A stretch of 64,000 bases of DNA from an uncultured Clostridia bacterium (GTDB taxonomy: Bacteria; Bacillota; Clostridia; TANB77; CAG-508). The position numbers and the translations under genes are program-made. The notes under the pieces were generated by a model. That model ran no database searches. It was not told the origin of the DNA and saw nothing but the letters and a program-made list of their open reading frames with translations. Location of the stretch: assembly GCA_947628835.1 (NCBI GenBank), contig CANRBL010000001.1:1618-65617 (forward strand), given 5' to 3'. Positions within the stretch are counted from its first letter, which is position 1, and each line of letters opens with the position of its first letter. Positions 7,330-61,951 of the stretch are shown piece by piece.

Positions 7330-7488
7330 ATCGTTCTCCTTTTTTTTCGAATTTGTTATATTATATATGCATTTTTAAAATTTTTCAAGTAGAATATGTA
7401 GTCAAATTTATATTTATACAAACACAGAAAAAGACACTAGTAAAATTCTTGATTTTTCTAATGTCTTAATAATTATTTTATTTAATCA

Positions 7489-8667
7489 TTATTGTTCCAA
7501 TAGTACGTATGGATTACTCTCTGTTCCATCTCCACCACTTACTTTTATTCCTGACTTTAACTTTACCAATGGTCTATATCCTATAGGCACATTGCCACTA
7601 CCATATGCAGAATCATAACTGAATGCTCCAACATAGCCATAATATACAATAATAATGTCATTTGAAGAATTTTTATGAGCAACTCTCCAATTACTATTAC
7701 CATAAAGATCACCTGATACACTCTTCCATAATTCAAGTGCATAACCAAGTGATTTATTAAATTGATCATATGTCGGTCCTCCAGTAGCAGATTCTGCAAA
7801 TTTGTCATTCACATAACTTGTCCAATTAGATGTATCCGTCATATAACTAACCGTTGTATCTGCATTTGTACCAACTCTCGTAGGATAAACAGCTAATTTT
7901 GTAATTATATATACTATATCTGATTCTAGATAAAAAACTCTCCAGCTACTAACTCCACCTGCACTATACTGTACATATTTTCCTTTGCCCGAACTTGTAT
8001 TTCCTAATACCTTTGCCAAATTATTAATTACATCCACTTCATATGTATTACTAATTTCACTTTCATCGTAATTTGTTATTTTACATGTTATTGTTACTTT
8101 TCCTATTTGACTCCCTGTTACTTCACATAACATTCCATTCCCTGTTACTGTTGCTTTATCTGTGTCACTACAATTCCATTTTATATCTTTATATGTTCCT
8201 CCCTCTTTACTGGCTTTTGCAGTTAATGTTATTGTACTGCCTACATCTACTAATTTTTCTCCGCTAATTTCTATTCCTTCTATATTCTTTGCATTAAATA
8301 TATTCCCATTCACCTCTATATTTCCATTATCATCCATTTTTACTTCATTCCCACTATCTGTCAATATTTTAAACTTTCCATTATCCTCTTCATATTTATC
8401 TTTATAATTAGTATCTAAAAAATTCTTTACACTAGATTGCCTTCCTTCTGTTTCACACGCTTTCTTATACATTTCATACTCGTTGCCTATACTTATAGCC
8501 TCTTCTTCTGCTTGAGCTTCTTGCGTCTTTGTCTTTGCTGTTCTTGCTCTTGATATTATTCCATTCTCTCCTCCTAATGTTGCTATTGATACTCCTGCTA
8601 ATATTAATAACACTATTATTGTGATTACTAATGCTATTAATGTTATCCCTTTATTTTTTTTCTTCAT
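7489..8667 (-). CDS. N-terminally anchored surface protein with prepilin-like leader and Big_2 Ig-like domain
   Basis: MKKKNKGITLIALVITIIVLLILAG resembles a class III (prepilin) signal but has Ala instead of Glu at +5; central Ig-like segment (VTITCKITNY...YEVDV); strong GAGGAGG RBS. Confidence 0.45.
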   Translation of the reverse strand: MKKKNKGITLIALVITIIVLLILAGVSIATLGGENGIISRARTAKTKTQEAQAEEEAISIGNEYEMYKKACETEGRQSSVKNFLDTNYKDKYEEDNGKFKILTDSGNEVKMDDNGNIEVNGNIFNAKNIEGIEISGEKLVDVGSTITLTAKASKEGGTYKDIKWNCSDTDKATVTGNGMLCEVTGSQIGKVTITCKITNYDESEISNTYEVDVINNLAKVLGNTSSGKGKYVQYSAGGVSSWRVFYLESDIVYIITKLAVYPTRVGTNADTTVSYMTDTSNWTSYVNDKFAESATGGPTYDQFNKSLGYALELWKSVSGDLYGNSNWRVAHKNSSNDIIIVYYGYVGAFSYDSAYGSGNVPIGYRPLVKLKSGIKVSGGDGTESNPYVLLEQ

Positions 8668-8699
8668 TATTTTCCTCCTCTTATATTATTTTTCAATTC

Positions 8700-8757
8700 A
8701 AAAAGCAGAAGTATTAACTTGTATCAAAAATTGACACAGTTTTACTTCTGCTTTTTT
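8700..8757. promoter_or_regulatory. large stem-loop in the leader of the 7489..8667 gene
   Basis: 13-bp perfect inverted repeat AAAAGCAGAAGTA / TACTTCTGCTTTT with a ~30-nt loop, T-runs on both sides, about 30 nt upstream of the RBS. Confidence 0.4.
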
Positions 8758-8800
8758 TCATATTTAATTTTATTTCTTTTTTATATTTACTAAACATAAT

Positions 8801-8818
8801 GTGTGTGTGTGTGTGTGT
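8801..8818. repeat. (GT)9 dinucleotide simple sequence repeat
   Basis: gtgtgtgtgtgtgtgtgt seen directly; about 135 bp upstream of the start of the surface-protein gene. Confidence 0.9.
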
Positions 8819-9024
8819 ACAGCCTCAAGGCTTTTAGCGTTTACTTTTTTCATTTGTATTTCTCCTTTCCTTCCTTATTCATTCATACTATAATAATTAT
8901 ATTCATTAGTCAAGTGTTTTTTCAATTTTGTCCTAGTAATAGTTACAAATTTTAAGTTCATTTCATATATTTACAAATTCACAAAAATGCTGTAAAATAA
9001 TATCCAAATGGAGGTTATAAGTAT

Positions 9025-13921: not shown

Positions 13922-14557
13922 ATGAACAGAAAACTAATATCAAAAAGTAATTTTGTATTAAGAAAAGTCATAAATAAAATTGAATGTATAGATATTATAA
14001 AAGACTTCATTGAAAGTATTTTACAGATAAAAATAAATTCTATAACATTAAATCCTTATTTATCACATATGGCAAAATATTTACCTTCGGAAGATAATTT
14101 TGGAATAGCAGATGTTAGAATTATAACAAATGATAATATTGAATATAATGTTGGAATTCAATTCATTGATGGATATTATGTGCAAAATAAATTATTATTG
14201 TATTATGCACAAATTCACGCAAATCAATTACAACATCAAAACTATAACAATACTGTAAAAACTATTACTATAAATATTTTAGATTTTGATTATTTTAATT
14301 CTAATACTTACAATAAAACTATAAAAATTAGAGAAAGTACTAATAGTGAATTTAATGAAGATATTGAATTACACGTTATAGAACTATCAAAATTTCGCAA
14401 TCAAAAAAATACAATTTCAAATAAAGAAGATGCTTGGATTGCATATTTAGATGGAAGTAATGAAAAATTAACAGACTATGCAAAAAACAATTTCGAATAT
14501 ATAAAAAAACTTGACAACTGCTTAGAAAATTACTGGGTAAATGAAACTATGGAATAG
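13922..14557 (+). pseudogene. Rpn/PD-(D/E)XK nuclease (transposase_31)-like ORF, probably disrupted, part 1
   Basis: weak family resemblance (GIADVRI...NVGIQF...LLLYYAQI...IELSKF); in-frame TAA immediately upstream of the ATG; nearest Shine-Dalgarno is 35 nt away. Confidence 0.35.
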
Positions 14558-14634
14558 GAGGTGTTTCAATCCATTTATCTTATAACAATTCTGATAAATT
14601 AAAAGATATTTTTATTGATTTAAATAATAAAAAT

Positions 14635-15165
14635 ATGATAATTACTTTGCTAATCTCTGTATTAAATTTAGATATTATTGATTTTAAATTTATTGATATA
14701 AAAAGCCTAAAAAATATTGCTGAATATCAATTTTCGCTATTAAAATGTGTATGTACTTTATCTAATTTAGAAACTCTTGATATATATTTGCGTATTATAA
14801 AAAAAGGAAAAATTAAAGAATCACTATTTTGCTATTGGTATTTATTATATGAAGAACAAGCTAGTAAATTTTCTAAAAAAGACATTTTTTCTTCTATTGT
14901 TAATAAAGCATCAATTTCAGATATATACTCAGAAAAGTACAAAAATAGCGTATTTTTAGAAATAGAAAATAATACTACTGATATTTTAAAATTTGGTACA
15001 GAAGTACATTTTATAGATTTTGTGAAATACATTGAATATAACAAAACTCAAAAACCAGAATTGAAAAATTGGCTAAATTATATAGATAAATCATCAAGCG
15101 ATTTTTTAATGATAGGCTTAGTATCAAATAAAAGTGCAAATAATAATATTATTTCTATTATTTAA
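14635..15165 (+). pseudogene. Rpn-like ORF, part 2 (frame-shifted continuation)
   Basis: reading frame is open from ~14546 and overlaps the end of part 1 in another frame; no RBS at the annotated ATG; similar N-terminal motif (LISVLNLDIIDF). Confidence 0.3.
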
Positions 15166-19698: not shown

Positions 19699-20700
19699 AT
19701 GATAATTAATTATGAAGATTCTAATTTTCCAATTTCTTTACGCAATATTCCCAATGCACCTAAACAGTTATATGTAAAGGGAAACATTAATTTATTAAAT
19801 TCTATCGGTATTGCAATTATAGGTTCTCGAAATTGTACTGATTATGGGAAAAAAATGTGCGAATATTTTACAAAAAAACTAACCCAGTATGGATTAACTA
19901 TAATTAGTGGAATGGCTGTTGGTATTGATGCCATTTCTCATATTACCGCAATCAAAAATAATGGAAAAACTATTGCTGTTTTACCCAGTGGTTTTAATCA
20001 TATTTTTCCTAAGGAAAATATTAATCTATTTGAAGATATTATTAACTCTGATGGTTGTATTGTTAGTGAATATTCACCTGATATTTATGCTTCATATAAT
20101 AATTTTTTAAAACGAAACAGAATTGTTAGTGGTTTAGCAATAGGCACTTTAGTAATTGAAGCAGGATATAGAAGTGGTACTACTGTTACTGCTAGACTAA
20201 CTAATCAGCAAGACAAAAAAGTATTCTGTGTTCCAAGTAACTTAGATAATCCTAAGGGAATCAGCACAAATACTTTAATACAAAAGGGTGCTTTTTTAGT
20301 TACTTGTGCAGAGGACATTCTAAAACAAATTCCTGACTTAAATATTAATATTATTAATGAAAAGAGAAATCATTTTATAGATAATACCTCTGATTCTAAG
20401 TACAATTCTTATACTAATACTAACATTAATTCTAATATTAATCCCAATATTAATTCTAATATTAATTCTAATATTAATTCTAATATTAATTCTAATAATA
20501 TTTCTAATAATATTAATTTTAAAATTAATCCCAATCTTTTAGACATTTACAATCTTATTAGTAATGAACCAATTGATATTGATGATATTATACGTCTATC
20601 TAATTTAAGTATTAATGAAGTTAATTATAAACTTACTATGCTTGAACTTGAAAATTTGATAATACAATTGCCAGGAAAACAATTTATTTTAAAAAATTAA
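19699..20700 (+). CDS. dprA: DNA-processing protein DprA (Smf)
   Basis: IAIIGSRNCTDYGKK Rossmann-like DprA core; contains an in-frame N/I/S-rich repeat insertion before the C-terminal domain. Confidence 0.85.
   Translation: MIINYEDSNFPISLRNIPNAPKQLYVKGNINLLNSIGIAIIGSRNCTDYGKKMCEYFTKKLTQYGLTIISGMAVGIDAISHITAIKNNGKTIAVLPSGFNHIFPKENINLFEDIINSDGCIVSEYSPDIYASYNNFLKRNRIVSGLAIGTLVIEAGYRSGTTVTARLTNQQDKKVFCVPSNLDNPKGISTNTLIQKGAFLVTCAEDILKQIPDLNINIINEKRNHFIDNTSDSKYNSYTNTNINSNINPNINSNINSNINSNINSNNISNNINFKINPNLLDIYNLISNEPIDIDDIIRLSNLSINEVNYKLTMLELENLIIQLPGKQFILKN
20423..20520 (+). repeat. in-frame 12-bp tandem repeat (aatattaattct)n inside dprA
   Basis: about 7 tandem units encoding NINS/NINP repeats, seen directly. 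Confidence 0.85.
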
Positions 20701-60845: not shown

Positions 60846-61154
60846 TTATTTTATGATTTCTCCACATTTTTTACATATACGAACTTTTTTGTCTTTATCT
60901 ATTTTATATCCTATTTTTGTAGGATTTCCACATTTTGAACATACTACTGCAACTTTACTTGCATATATGCTACATTCTACTGGGATTATTCCTCCTGCTT
61001 CTCCTTGTTTTTTTGGTTTTACATGTTTTTTTCTTACATTTATACCTTTTACTATTACTTTACCAGATTTAGGAATAACTTCTAATACTTCTCCTTTTTT
61101 ATCTTTGTCATTTCCAGATAAAACTTGTACTGTATCTCCTTTATGTATTCTCAC
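60846..61154 (-). CDS. rplX: 50S ribosomal protein L24, with C-terminal Cys4 zinc-ribbon variant
   Basis: KOW N-terminus MRIHKGDTVQVLSGNDKDKKGEV; C-terminus CSKCGNPTKIGYKIDKDKKVRICKKCGE. Confidence 0.88.
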   Translation of the reverse strand: MRIHKGDTVQVLSGNDKDKKGEVLEVIPKSGKVIVKGINVRKKHVKPKKQGEAGGIIPVECSIYASKVAVVCSKCGNPTKIGYKIDKDKKVRICKKCGEIIK

Positions 61155-61231: not shown

Positions 61232-61530
61232 TCTTATCATACATAAAACACTTCGTGATTCTTTGCGTTTTTTGTATTTTTTATCTTCTTATTCGAGTTA
61301 CTTTTGCTTCTTTTTTGGCTTATCATACATAAAACACTTCGTAATTCTTTGCGTTTTCTGTATTTTTAATCTTCTTATTCGAGTTACTTTTGCTTCTTTT
61401 TGGGCTTATCATACATAAAACACTTCGTGATATTTTGCTTTTTTTATCTTTAATTTTCTTATTCGAGTTACTTTTGCTTCTTTTTTGGTTTATCATACAT
61501 AAAACACTTCGTATATACTTCGTGTTTTAT
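61232..61530. repeat. tandem repeat, ~86-bp unit x 3.4, inserted between rplN and rplX
   Basis: units begin cttatcatacataaaacacttcgt(g/a)att... at 61232, 61318 and 61404, with a partial diverged copy at ~61488; the period of 86 bp is seen directly. Confidence 0.9.
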
Positions 61531-61582
61531 GCATCTTTAATCTGTAACACTCGATTATCTTTCAGATAATCTCGTTAACAGC

Positions 61583-61951
61583 TTAAAGAACTTCAGGGGC
61601 TAAAGAAAGAATTTTCATGTATTCTTGATCTCTTAATTCTCTTGCTACTGGTCCAAATATACGTGTTCCTCTTGGTGTTTTGTCATCTCTTATAATTACT
61701 GCTGCATTTTCATCAAATTTTATGTATGAACCGTCTGCTCTTCTTAATCCTCTTTTTGATCTTACTATAACAGCTTTTACAACATCACCTTTTTTTACAA
61801 CTCCACCTGGTGTTGCTGATTTTACTGAAGCTACTATCATATCACCAATGTTTGCATTTTTTCTATAAGAACCACCAACACATCTAATACACATCAACTC
61901 TTTTGCTCCAGTATTATCTGCTACCTTCAATATAGTTTGTTGCTGTATCAT
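61583..61951 (-). CDS. rplN: 50S ribosomal protein L14
   Basis: [27 protein letters not shown]. Confidence 0.9.

What the first reader, a model, noticed from the sequence alone, without database searches (positions are those of the whole stretch)
7489..8830. Surface-protein gene preceded by a (GT)9 tract and a 13-bp-stem hairpin; prepilin-like leader lacks the conserved Glu5
The 392-aa protein starts MKKKNKG|ITLIALV…, which resembles a type IV prepilin class III signal but has Ala where the methylation-critical Glu+5 should be. It also carries an Ig-like (Big_2-type) domain. About 135 bp upstream lies a perfect (GT)9 microsatellite at 8801-8818, which is rare in a genome this AT-rich. Between it and the RBS is a long-stem hairpin with T-runs (8700-8757). 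Dinucleotide tracts in promoters are classic phase-variation switches, and the hairpin could act as an attenuator.
Basis: partly seen in the sequence, partly recalled or inferred. Interest (0 to 1): 0.6.

Follow-up and report, generated by a model that had tools for sequence, protein, structure and literature searches.

The report
Repeat-controlled leader switch for surface protein
The GT/CA repeat and the hairpin are two parts of one probable stochastic on/off switch: the repeat sits inside a tiny upstream reading frame, and its length decides whether ribosomes run into a transcription terminator in front of a surface-protein gene, a mechanism shown experimentally only in Streptococcus gallolyticus and found here as a multi-copy cassette in uncultured gut Firmicutes.

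Summary
The window holds a perfect (TG)9.5 tract at 8800-8818, a strong hairpin with a U-run at 8756-8700, and a 392-aa Big_2 protein with a prepilin-like N-terminus that has Ala at +5.

It lies inside a 27-codon leader ORF (8853-8770) with its own Shine-Dalgarno site, downstream of a TTGACT-17-TAGTAT promoter.

I found the same cassette at 28 loci in AT-rich Clostridia and Erysipelotrichaceae MAGs: promoter, leader ORF, a conserved 19-nt box, (CA)3-15 or (TA)8-10, then a hairpin terminator and a surface-protein gene. The hairpin sequences differ between lineages, yet in 7 of 9 lineages exactly one of the three frames runs into the hairpin. Two orthologous locus pairs differ only by one CA unit. 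One relative has no terminator and carries the repeat in the gene's own leader-coding sequence.

This matches the phase-variable leader-peptide attenuator of S. gallolyticus pil1/pil3 (Danne 2014). The window copy (n=9) is predicted OFF or low, and n=8 or n=11 predicted ON.

Pilin membership is not established. Nothing here was shown experimentally.

The parts
8908..8913 (-). -35 hexamer TTGACT of the cassette promoter
   Evidence: Promoter scan and coordinates. TTGACT or TTGACA at the same position is conserved in paralogues and most other loci.
8885..8890 (-). -10 hexamer TAGTAT, 17-nt spacer after the -35 (an overlapping TTGAAA-18-TATAAT match at 8925-8896 is an alternative)
   Evidence: The aligned paralogue L007 has TAATAT at the same place.
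8862..8870 (-). Shine-Dalgarno sequence GGAAAGGAG of the leader ORF
   Evidence: Read from the sequence. An SD-like motif precedes the in-frame ATG at all 25 loci examined.
8770..8853 (-). Leader ORF, 27 codons plus stop (MKKVNAKSLEAVHTHTHTLCLVNIKKK*) at the present tract length n=9
8820..8838 (-). Conserved 19-nt box GCTAAAAGCCTTGAGGCTG (codons AKSLEA plus the first base of the Val codon) containing the inverted repeat AGCC-UUGA-GGCU (8832-8821); function unknown
   Evidence: The box is unique in the window. It is identical in at least 7 lineages with otherwise unalignable leaders. The L050 variant keeps the stem through a G-C to C-G swap.
8800..8818 (-). Simple sequence repeat: A(CA)9 on the gene strand, (TG)9.5 on the + strand, coding HTHTHT
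8700..8756 (-). Attenuator: imperfect stem-loop (core 8752-8704, dG -22; extended -26.7 kcal/mol) ending in U5, with the features of an intrinsic terminator
   Evidence: Within the (TA)n lineage the equivalent stem shows 4 pairs with compensatory changes.
8714..8716 (-). TAA in the 3' arm of the hairpin, the stop codon reached by the leader ORF when n=8 or 11 (predicted ON frame, 45-47 codons)
8674..8681 (-). Shine-Dalgarno sequence AGAGGAGG of the structural gene; only 32 nt separate the U-run from the ATG, leaving no room for a separate promoter
   Evidence: The only promoter-like match between hairpin and gene (TTGAAA-16-GAAAAT, 8696-8669, 9 of 12) overlaps the SD sequence and ends 1 nt before the ATG, so it leaves no leader.
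7489..8667 (-). Structural gene, 392 aa: prepilin-like N-terminal module (1-~125), Big_2 Ig-like domain (134-194), and a C-terminal beta-rich domain (~231-390) shared with many family members
7427..7467 (-). Hairpin plus T-run after the stop codon, the likely terminator of the monocistronic gene. The next gene (7329-6250) has its own TTGAAA-17-TATAAT promoter.

Best explanation
The region 8913-7427 (- strand) is one expression unit for a surface protein, controlled by a phase-variable leader-ORF attenuator.

**Proposed mechanism.**
1. Transcription starts at a sigma-70-type promoter (8913-8885).
2. Ribosomes load on a strong SD site and translate a short leader ORF that contains a conserved 19-nt box followed by (CA)n.
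3. About 45 nt further on, the RNA forms a stable hairpin followed by a U-run (8756-8700), which terminates most transcripts before the structural gene.
4. Slipped-strand gain or loss of CA units shifts the leader ORF among three frames.
5. Two frames hit conserved stop codons 7-27 nt after the tract, and the terminator forms (OFF or low).
6. The third frame stays open into the 3' arm of the hairpin (TAA at 8716-8714). The translating ribosome then covers the 5' arm, the terminator cannot form, and RNA polymerase reads into the 392-aa gene (ON).

**State of this copy.** With n=9 the window copy is in a short frame, with its stop 13-17 nt before the stem, so it is predicted OFF or low. n=8 or 11 is predicted ON, and n=10 OFF.

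**Shown here.**
- The anatomy of the unit.
- Its conservation across lineages.
- The frame logic.
- Tract-length polymorphism at orthologous loci.

**Inferred only.**
- That the leader ORF is translated.
- That the hairpin terminates transcription.
- That the ribosome relieves termination.

The product is a membrane-anchored or possibly pilin-like modular surface protein. The cassette probably gives stochastic, reversible, copy-by-copy variation of a paralogous surface-protein repertoire.
For: 1. **The cassette recurs.** The same order of parts occurs upstream of four paralogues or homologues that share only about 50% amino-acid identity in the gene, while the leader DNA is 81% identical per alignment column, with an invariant box-SSR core. 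It also occurs at 28 unique loci in AT-rich Clostridia and Erysipelotrichaceae MAGs and metagenomes.
2. **Translation signals are conserved.** At all 25 loci checked, the ATG that is in frame with the box is preceded by an SD-like motif, although the 1-7 codons before the box differ.
3. **The repeat varies.** It is (CA)3-15 or (TA)8-10.
4. **The tract is the sole polymorphism in two locus pairs.** L022 and L039 are 100% identical over 601 nt except n=11 versus 10. L024 and L032 are identical over 448 nt except n=10 versus 11.
5. **Hairpins differ but keep place and function-like features.** Hairpin sequences are unalignable between lineages, yet each sits 39-48 nt after the tract (94 nt in L030), has dG -14 to -32 kcal/mol, and is followed by a T-run. 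Within the (TA)n lineage, 4 stem pairs show compensatory changes.
6. **One frame reaches the hairpin.** In 7 of 9 hairpin lineages exactly one of three frames stays open into or through the hairpin, and the other two stop 2-34 nt after the tract. Within the window's own lineage the connecting frame differs between copies but one is always open. The Fisher combined P over the nine lineages is 0.014. The two exceptions, L011 and L050, are the two with interrupted, decayed repeats.
7. **No room for a second promoter.** Only 32 nt lie between the U-run and the gene's ATG in the window; the one weak promoter-like match there overlaps the gene's SD sequence.
8. **A simpler relative exists.** L028 has no terminator, and the leader ORF fuses in frame to the pilin-like gene only at n=14 or 17. 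This is classical translational SSR switching.
9. **The mechanism has an experimental precedent.** S. gallolyticus pil1/pil3 use GCAGA repeats in a leader-peptide ORF plus a stem-loop terminator. Leader stops at least 28 nt upstream gave low expression, and stops adjacent to or through the hairpin gave high expression (PMC3894217).
Against: - There are no expression, read-level or single-cell data.
- The three assemblies of this exact locus all have n=9.
- The open-frame statistic is only moderately significant. Per-locus shuffle probabilities of some frame reaching the hairpin are 0.28-0.52, and lineages share ancestry.
- Loci were ascertained by exact match to the box, so conservation of the box itself is biased.
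- In several relatives the spacer between hairpin and gene is 100-250 nt and could hold a second promoter.
- From my own knowledge, transcription-translation coupling is weak in Bacillus subtilis, which would make ribosome-mediated antitermination harder in Firmicutes. The S. gallolyticus case shows it can still work.
- The window's n=9 stop lies 13-17 nt before the stem, between the 'low' and 'high' distances of the S. gallolyticus study, so its state is uncertain.
- Only 3 of about 20 scorable loci are in the long frame, where one third would be expected if unselected.
Confidence: 0.68

Rival explanations
1. Independent small gene. The SD-preceded 27-codon ORF with its hairpin is a self-contained small-peptide or small-RNA gene with its own terminator. 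The surface-protein gene is transcribed separately, and tract variation only changes the small peptide.
For: The leader unit has its own promoter, SD site, ORF and terminator. In some relatives 100-250 nt separate the hairpin from the gene. Gene callers annotated a 29-aa gene in L005, L006 and L050.
Against: In the window only 32 nt separate the U-run from the ATG, and the only promoter-like match there overlaps the gene's SD sequence and is a weak 9 of 12. The peptide is not conserved apart from the box, and the box variant changes 4 of 7 residues while keeping the nucleic-acid stem. The peptide's C-terminus differs in every frame and lineage. The unit is always followed by a secreted or anchored protein gene on the same strand. 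L028 fuses the ORF to the gene.
Confidence: 0.1
2. Translation-independent RNA switch. Tract length changes the structure, processing or stability of the 5' leader RNA, as reported for the Haemophilus influenzae hmw 5'-UTR element cut by RNase III. The reading frame is irrelevant.
For: The box contains a conserved hairpin maintained by one compensatory change. (TA)n tracts are self-complementary. A 5'-UTR RNA mechanism for SSR phase variation exists in the literature (PMC12721329).
Against: (CA)n cannot pair with itself or with the hairpin. SD, ATG and frame relative to the box are conserved everywhere. Conserved TAA/TAG stops close two frames just after the tract, and one frame is kept open into hairpins of unrelated sequence. 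No Rfam family matches.
Confidence: 0.1
3. Promoter-spacer repeat. Changes in GT number alter promoter geometry and hence transcription initiation, and the hairpin is a separate attenuator.
For: Dinucleotide tracts in promoter spacers are a known switch type, for example the (TA)n tract in the H. influenzae hif promoter (my own knowledge). A different family member does show an A6/A7 difference inside a TTGACT...TATAAT spacer.
Against: The conserved -35/-10 pair lies upstream of the leader ORF, and the tract begins 66 nt after the -10. No hexamers flank the tract. Tract lengths of 6-30 nt in relatives are incompatible with a 16-18-nt spacer.
Confidence: 0.03
4. Classical amino-acid-sensing attenuator. 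The His/Thr codon run in the leader peptide senses charged tRNA, as in the his and thr operons.
For: The leader peptide has alternating His and Thr codons followed by a terminator.
Against: The downstream genes encode surface proteins, not biosynthetic enzymes. No alternative antiterminator pairing was seen. In other lineages the run is (TA)n coding Tyr/Ile, and the copy number varies from 3 to 15.
Confidence: 0.02
5. Neutral microsatellite next to an ordinary terminator-like hairpin, with no regulatory role.
For: No functional data exist, and this locus is identical in three assemblies.
Against: An 18-nt CA tract is not expected by chance at 26.5% G+C. It recurs at the same position after the same box at 28 loci across several lineages.
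Confidence: 0.03

Closest known systems
Streptococcus gallolyticus pil1 and pil3 leader-peptide phase-variation attenuator (Danne et al. 2014, PLoS Pathog, PMC3894217)
   Same: Both have a promoter, an SD-preceded short leader ORF containing a repeat whose unit length is not a multiple of 3, a stem-loop terminator about 30-45 nt downstream, and then an adhesin or pilus gene. In both, the frame set by repeat number decides whether the leader stop lies well upstream (low) or within or next to the hairpin (high). Both belong to gut-associated Firmicutes. More than one locus per genome carries the device.
   Different: - The repeat here is a dinucleotide, (CA)n or (TA)n with n up to 15, rather than 13-26 GCAGA pentamers.
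- Only one of three frames is ON here, whereas two of three out-of-frame states were high in S. gallolyticus.
- An invariant 19-nt box with a small hairpin precedes the tract and has no counterpart there.
- The cargo is a family of prepilin-signal-like modular proteins (Big_2, LRR_5, FGE-sulfatase, DUF6273 modules) or other anchored proteins, not sortase pili.
- I saw no sequence resemblance.
- Nothing here has been tested experimentally.
Translational SSR switching in signal-peptide coding regions, e.g. Neisseria opa CTCTT repeats (my own knowledge)
   Same: A repeat lies in the leader-coding 5' end of a surface-protein gene, giving a three-frame ON/OFF logic in a multi-copy family where each copy switches independently. 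The relative L028 works exactly this way.
   Different: In the window the repeat is not in the structural gene's own ORF. It lies in a separate upstream ORF, separated from the gene by a terminator, so control would act on transcription read-through.
Clostridioides difficile cwpV switch (invertible element that forms or abolishes an intrinsic terminator in the 5' leader; my own knowledge)
   Same: Phase variation of a Firmicute surface protein is executed through a terminator in the leader.
   Different: That switch is a site-specific DNA inversion by a recombinase, not repeat slippage plus translation.
pyrBI-type attenuation in E. coli (leader ORF runs through the attenuator and a closely following ribosome blocks the hairpin; my own knowledge)
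   Same: In both, a ribosome translating into the terminator hairpin physically prevents termination.
   Different: The input there is physiological (UTP-dependent RNA polymerase pausing). Here it would be a heritable frame change.
Type IV pilins, pseudopilins and modular pilins (e.g. S. sanguinis PilB/PilC; GspK-type minor pilins that lack Glu5; my own knowledge and PMC6497953, listed)
   Same: Both have a short basic leader ending in Gly followed by a hydrophobic helix of about 20 residues, with extra functional modules grafted C-terminally. The absence of Glu5 has precedent in tip-located minor pseudopilins.
   Different: - Ala at +5 is invariant across the family.
- Profile scores are below threshold.
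- No pilin match appeared in the fold search.
- No processing or assembly genes were seen in the window.
- Cleavage is not demonstrated.

Membership tests
SSR-dependent leader-peptide transcription attenuator (S. gallolyticus pil1/pil3 type) | Promoter followed by a short leader ORF with a ribosome-binding site, upstream of the structural gene | tested here: met
   The window has TTGACT-17-TAGTAT at 8913-8885, SD GGAAAGGAG, and a 27-codon ORF at 8853-8770. The arrangement is conserved at 25 loci.
SSR-dependent leader-peptide transcription attenuator (S. gallolyticus pil1/pil3 type) | Hypermutable repeat, with unit length not divisible by 3, inside the leader ORF | tested here: met
   (CA)9 lies at 8817-8800 within the ORF. 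Relatives carry (CA)3-15 or (TA)8-10.
SSR-dependent leader-peptide transcription attenuator (S. gallolyticus pil1/pil3 type) | Stem-loop with U-tract (premature terminator) between the leader ORF and the gene | tested here: met
   The hairpin at 8756-8700 has dG -22 to -26.7 kcal/mol and a U5 tail. Hairpins occupy the same position in other lineages, with compensatory pairs in one lineage. Termination activity itself was not tested.
SSR-dependent leader-peptide transcription attenuator (S. gallolyticus pil1/pil3 type) | Repeat-number-dependent frames place the leader stop either well upstream of the hairpin or within or beyond it | tested here: met
   In the window, n=9 stops 17 nt before the core stem, n=10 stops 37 nt before it, and n=8 or 11 stops in the 3' arm. 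The same logic holds in 7 of 9 lineages, with Fisher P=0.014.
SSR-dependent leader-peptide transcription attenuator (S. gallolyticus pil1/pil3 type) | Repeat number differs between isolates or cells at the same locus | tested here: inconclusive
   This is met at two related loci: L022 versus L039 and L024 versus L032 each differ by one CA unit in otherwise identical sequence. It is not seen at the window locus, where three assemblies all have n=9. Read-level data are unavailable.
SSR-dependent leader-peptide transcription attenuator (S. gallolyticus pil1/pil3 type) | Read-through depends on translation of the leader, and expression is heterogeneous in the population | not testable with these tools
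   This needs reporter constructs, Term-seq or single-cell assays.
Type IV pilin / class III signal peptide protein | Short basic leader ending in Gly, followed by a hydrophobic stretch of about 20 residues | tested here: met
   The protein starts MKKKNKG|ITLIALVITIIVLLILAGVSIA. G7 to A24 are invariant or nearly invariant in 33 homologues.
Type IV pilin / class III signal peptide protein | Glu at position +5 of the mature protein | tested here: not met
   Ala is at +5 (residue 12) and is invariant in 20 and 33 aligned homologues and in 23 of the 24 N-termini found in the loci, the other having Val (L028).
Type IV pilin / class III signal peptide protein | Match to curated N-terminal methylation/cleavage profiles (Pfam PF07963, NCBIfam TIGR02532) at threshold | tested here: not met
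   PF07963 scores 18.7 bits against a 21.2-bit cut-off. No prepilin model appears among the NCBIfam hits.
Type IV pilin / class III signal peptide protein | Pilin fold: long N-terminal helix packed on an antiparallel beta-sheet | tested here: inconclusive
   The AF2 model of residues 1-128 (pLDDT 80) has helices at 5-32 and 37-74 followed by a 5-strand sheet. Foldseek against the PDB finds no pilin, with best E=0.15 to PepSY-like periplasmic proteins. The whole-protein search returns only Ig-like hits.
Type IV pilin / class III signal peptide protein | Prepilin peptidase and filament assembly genes in the genome | not testable with these tools
   I saw none in the 64-kb window, whose ORFs read as housekeeping genes; only ten unclear ORFs were formally scanned against Pfam. 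The rest of the genome is not available.
Promoter-spacer SSR phase variation | Repeat located between or overlapping the -35 and -10 hexamers | tested here: not met
   The tract begins 66 nt downstream of the -10 and lies inside an ORF.
Bacterial Ig-like domain group 2 (Big_2) proteins | Pfam PF02368 above the gathering score | tested here: met
   The match scores 33.8 bits against a 22.8-bit cut-off, covering residues 134-194. The model shows a beta-sandwich matching the phage lambda gpV Ig-like domain, TM 0.75.

The most novel reading that the evidence does not exclude
The box-plus-repeat-plus-terminator unit may be a portable, multi-copy phase-variation cassette. It would be spread across uncultured gut Clostridia and Erysipelotrichaceae and independently gate each member of a large repertoire of Glu5-less, prepilin-signal modular proteins. 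These proteins could be interchangeable tip adhesins of a type IV filament or a new kind of signal anchor. The invariant 19-nt box would be an active cis-element, for example a slippage enhancer, a protein-binding site or a gene-conversion anchor, rather than a passive coding remnant. That would be a programmed combinatorial surface-variation system in abundant commensals, comparable to Neisseria opa or Mycoplasma vlp but built on leader-ORF attenuation.
Probability: 0.2. Interest if true: 0.75.

Novelty: new variant of a known kind. Interest (0 to 1): 0.6.

Why it matters
**Rarity of the mechanism.** Repeat-controlled leader-peptide attenuation has a single experimental example, S. gallolyticus pil1/pil3. 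It is absent from a 2025 review of phase variation. My searches found it discussed only in the S. gallolyticus literature.

**What this finding adds.**
- A non-homologous cassette with the same logic occurs at dozens of loci in uncultured gut Firmicutes from human, rabbit, chicken and rumen samples. This suggests the mechanism is a general, recurrent solution rather than a curiosity.
- The cassette gives a sequence signature: the box, a dinucleotide tract, then a hairpin. This could be used to find phase-variable surface genes in metagenomes and to read ON/OFF states directly from reads.
- It flags a very large protein family, more than 7,800 database hits. Family members share an invariant GITLIALVITIIVLLILAG N-terminus without Glu5, and how they are processed and displayed is unknown.

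Tried and rejected
- **Rfam.** Neither the leader searched at E up to 10 nor the whole window at gathering thresholds gave a relevant family.
- **Simple terminator scan.** It found nothing. I rejected this negative because the stem has an internal loop and folding gives -22 to -26.7 kcal/mol.
- **Other cassette copies in the window.** There are none.
- **His/Thr-sensing attenuator or RiPP-like peptide.** I rejected both because the peptide is not conserved and the run becomes Tyr/Ile in (TA)n lineages.
- **Promoter-spacer model.** Rejected on position.
- **Solved-structure sequence search.** It returned only Big_2 relatives.
- **Sampling other family members by protein.** P0024, P0096, P0062, P0059 and P0084 lack the repeat cassette. 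The cassette is therefore confined to some lineages of the family and is not a family-wide feature.
- **Pilus machinery.** A Pfam scan of ten unclear window ORFs found none.
Full report
**1. Checking the observation**

All the described features are present at the stated coordinates.
- Tandem Repeats Finder gives (TG)9.5 at 8800-8818 with 100% matches.
- A regex scan shows it is the only non-AT dinucleotide tract of 5 or more units in the window apart from a (CT)5. The window is 26.5% G+C, so such a tract is not expected by chance. My estimate from base composition is about 2e-7 per window.
- The gene on the minus strand, 8667..7489, encodes 392 aa beginning MKKKNKGITLIALVITIIVLLILAG.
- Pfam gives Big_2 at residues 134-194 (E=3.3e-8). 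N_methyl scores 18.7 bits, below its 21.2-bit cut-off.
- The hairpin folds with dG -22 kcal/mol (core 8752-8704) or -26.7 kcal/mol (8756-8700, including A/U pairs) and ends in five U.
- The consensus terminator scanner missed it because the stem has an internal loop.

**2.

Read on the gene strand, the tract is (CA)9 and lies inside a small ORF, 8853..8770. The ORF encodes MKKVNAKSLEAVHTHTHTLCLVNIKKK. It is preceded by GGAAAGGAG at the correct distance and by a TTGACT-17-TAGTAT promoter at 8913-8885.

The tract therefore starts 66 nt downstream of the -10 hexamer, in transcribed and probably translated RNA, not in a promoter. After the hairpin's U-run only 32 nt remain before the gene's ATG, and most of these are the SD sequence. 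The gene therefore cannot have a conventional promoter of its own and must be reached by read-through of the hairpin.

**3. The cassette recurs**

The closest homologues of the protein share 48-55% identity with it.
- I fetched contigs for P0002, P0003, P0004 and P0007. All carry the same leader, with 81% mean column identity and an invariant box-SSR core, although the proteins are only about half identical. Their CA counts are 8, 8, 8 and 10.
- P0007 is listed on a 98-kb contig of the same length as the longest contig carrying the window's protein, and was fetched from the same sample as L001. L005 has two cassette-plus-gene units in tandem.
- Scanning one genome per species with the invariant 19-mer GCTAAAAGCCTTGAGGCTG gave 21 hits. 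Sixteen are in AT-rich 'Clostridia', 'Clostridium sp.' and 'Erysipelotrichaceae' MAGs from human, rabbit, chicken and rumen samples. The other five have 46-53% G+C, no tract after the box, and match the number expected by chance.
- A metagenome scan added eight more real hits. Three copies with a slightly different box turned up incidentally.

Every copy has the same order of parts:
1. A -35/-10 promoter.
2. An SD site and an ATG.
3. One to seven variable codons.
4. The box, read as A K S L E A V.
5. (CA)n with n=3-15, or (TA)n with n=8-10.
6. A motif of the form TTTAnTAAATAA that supplies stops in two frames.
7. An A-rich spacer.
8. A hairpin with a T-run.
9. An SD site and a gene for a secreted or anchored protein.

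The downstream gene usually has the GITLIALVITIIVLLILAG N-terminus.

**4. Evidence that the tract is unstable**

Two pairs of independent assemblies of the same locus differ only in the tract.
- L022 (n=11) and L039 (n=10) are otherwise identical over 601 nt.
- L024 (n=10) and L032 (n=11) are identical over 448 nt.

Short tracts (n=3) are the same in both assemblies of their locus. At the window's own locus three assemblies are identical, with n=9. This is uninformative, because they are 100% identical throughout and come from one study.

**5. Frame logic**

For every copy I computed the leader peptide for n, n+1 and n+2 and the position of its stop relative to the hairpin.

In the window:
- n=9 stops 17 nt before the core stem (13 nt before the extended stem).
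- n=10 stops 37 nt before it.
- n=8 or 11 gives a 45-47-codon ORF ending at a TAA in the 3' arm (8716-8714).

Exactly one long frame exists in 7 of 9 lineages defined by unalignable hairpin sequences. Within the window's lineage, indels have changed which frame connects the tract to the hairpin. It is the 'HIMF...' frame in the window and L005, and the 'TLCLL...' frame in L004 and L007. One frame is always open, which points to selection for openness rather than for a peptide.

Dinucleotide-preserving shuffles give these probabilities:

| Test | Result |
|---|---|
| Some frame reaches the hairpin, per locus | P 0.28-0.52 |
| Same test for L030 (94-nt spacer) | P 0.037 |
| Fisher combination over nine lineages, including the two failures | P = 0.014 |

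The two failures, L011 and L050, are the copies whose repeat is interrupted (CACACGCGCACACACACA and (CA)3(TA)5). In both, the present frame stops 5-12 nt before the hairpin, which may be a locked state.

Hairpins in the (TA)n lineage show four stem pairs with compensatory changes. Of about 20 scorable loci, 3 are in the long frame.

**6. A simpler relative**

In L028 (a Hadza gut MAG) there is no hairpin. The leader ORF runs directly into the pilin-like gene as MKKVKAKSLEAV(HT)n..YNLDNERG|ITLVALV, but only when n=14 or 17. The assembly has n=15, so it is out of frame.

This is ordinary translational repeat switching in a leader-coding region. It supports reading the tract as a phase-variation repeat, and it suggests how the two-part cassette may have arisen.

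**7. Mechanism and precedent**

A literature search found the same logic demonstrated in Streptococcus gallolyticus (Danne et al. 2014, PMC3894217).
- GCAGA repeats in a leader-peptide ORF change its length.
- Longer peptides whose stop lies within or next to a stem-loop terminator raise pil1 and pil3 transcription through ribosome-induced destabilisation of the hairpin.
- Isolates whose leader stops at least 28 nt upstream were mostly low.
- Isolates with stops immediately upstream of, or through, the hairpin were high.
- Mutating the ATG, adding stops or deleting the terminator behaved as that model predicts.

I therefore propose the same mechanism here. It is inferred, not shown. By the S. 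gallolyticus distances, the window's n=9 state (13-17 nt) is probably OFF or low but could be leaky.

One caveat comes from my own knowledge. Transcription and translation are poorly coupled in B. subtilis, so the ribosome may need an RNA polymerase pause at the hairpin.

**8. Rival explanations**

- **Separate small gene.** This is unlikely, because no promoter fits after the hairpin in the window and the peptide is not conserved.
- **Translation-independent RNA effect.** This does not explain the conserved SD, ATG and frame, or the stop pattern.
- **Promoter-spacer model.** This fails on position.
- **His/Thr sensing.** This fails because (TA)n lineages encode Tyr/Ile and the cargo genes encode surface proteins.

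**9. The protein**

More than 7,800 database proteins match. Most share only the roughly 55-residue N-terminal module, at 70-75% identity. Their C-terminal modules vary widely and include Big_2, LRR_5, FGE-sulfatase and DUF6273.
- Gly7 through Ala24 are invariant or nearly invariant, and Ala occupies +5 throughout. The missing Glu5 is therefore a family trait, not a lesion.
- AF2 models (pLDDT 83 and 80) show helices at 5-32 and 37-74, a small sheet, the Ig domain and a C-terminal beta-rich domain.
- Foldseek finds Ig-like hits for the whole model and no pilin for the N-terminal module (best E=0.15).
- NCBIfam has no prepilin hit.
- I saw no prepilin peptidase or pilus genes in the window, which is housekeeping DNA: acc/fab genes, tsaE/tsaB/rimI, comM, dprA, infB and ribosomal-protein operons (for the ten ORFs formally scanned).

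Membership in the type IV pilin class is therefore not established. The protein may be a Glu5-less minor or tip pilin, or simply a signal-anchored surface protein.

**10. Unexplained**

The 19-nt box is identical in lineages whose other leader parts are unalignable. One variant keeps its AGCC/GGCU stem by a G-C to C-G swap while changing four of seven amino acids. This points to a constraint at the nucleic-acid level. Another variant breaks the stem. Ascertainment by exact match limits what can be concluded.

**11. Verdict**

The feature is best explained as a dinucleotide-repeat version of the leader-peptide phase-variation attenuator, present as a multi-copy cassette in uncultured gut Firmicutes. 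I classify it as a new variant of a known kind, because the mechanism class has one published example. Interest is moderate to high for phase-variation and microbiome specialists. Everything functional remains to be tested.

Noticed in passing
window 61233-61543: A tandem array of an 86-nt unit (3.6 copies, 89% identity) fills the spacer between rplN (61583-61951) and rplX (60846-61154) inside the ribosomal-protein operon. It has no Rfam match, and its function is unknown.
   Followed up: partly
window 8820-8838 and loci L009-L039, L050: The 19-nt box GCTAAAAGCCTTGAGGCTG before the repeat is identical across lineages with otherwise unalignable leaders. It contains a small inverted repeat. One variant preserves the stem by a compensatory swap while changing the encoded amino acids. 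Its role is unexplained.
   Followed up: partly
L028:336-520: A Hadza gut MAG copy lacks the terminator. The leader ORF with (CA)15 is fused to the pilin-like gene and would be in frame only at n=14 or 17, so the assembly state is OFF.
   Followed up: yes
L042-L045, about 110 nt upstream of the gene start (1501 in L042/L043): Another family member (P0024) has no leader cassette, but its TTGACT...TATAAT promoter spacer contains A6 in two samples and A7 in two others. This is a possible homopolymer promoter switch in the same protein family.
   Followed up: no
L055 vs L058, about 260 nt upstream of the gene start (1201): At the P0084 locus, a hairpin that overlaps the TTGACT promoter differs by one TA unit in its loop between samples.
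   Followed up: no
L009:-508 and L013:-6759 downstream genes: Two (TA)n cassettes precede genes whose products have ordinary signal-anchor N-termini rather than the pilin-like motif. The cassette is therefore not tied to one cargo type.
   Followed up: no
L036 vs L021/L012: L036 combines a promoter and 5' part like L012/L022 with a terminator and spacer like L021, and has (CA)11 where L021 has (CA)3. This suggests recombination between cassettes around the box and repeat.
   Followed up: no
window 20404-20529: A 12-nt repeat (8.8 copies) inside the DprA-like ORF 19699-20700 encodes NINS repeats.
   Followed up: no
window 24729-25096: The N-terminal part of IF2 (22588-25653) carries long Asn-rich repeat arrays with periods of 6, 18, 27 and 105 nt.
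   Followed up: no
window 13922-15165: Two adjacent ORFs both match PDDEXK_2 (Rpn-like PD-(D/E)XK nuclease/transposase family). They may be a split or duplicated gene.
   Followed up: no
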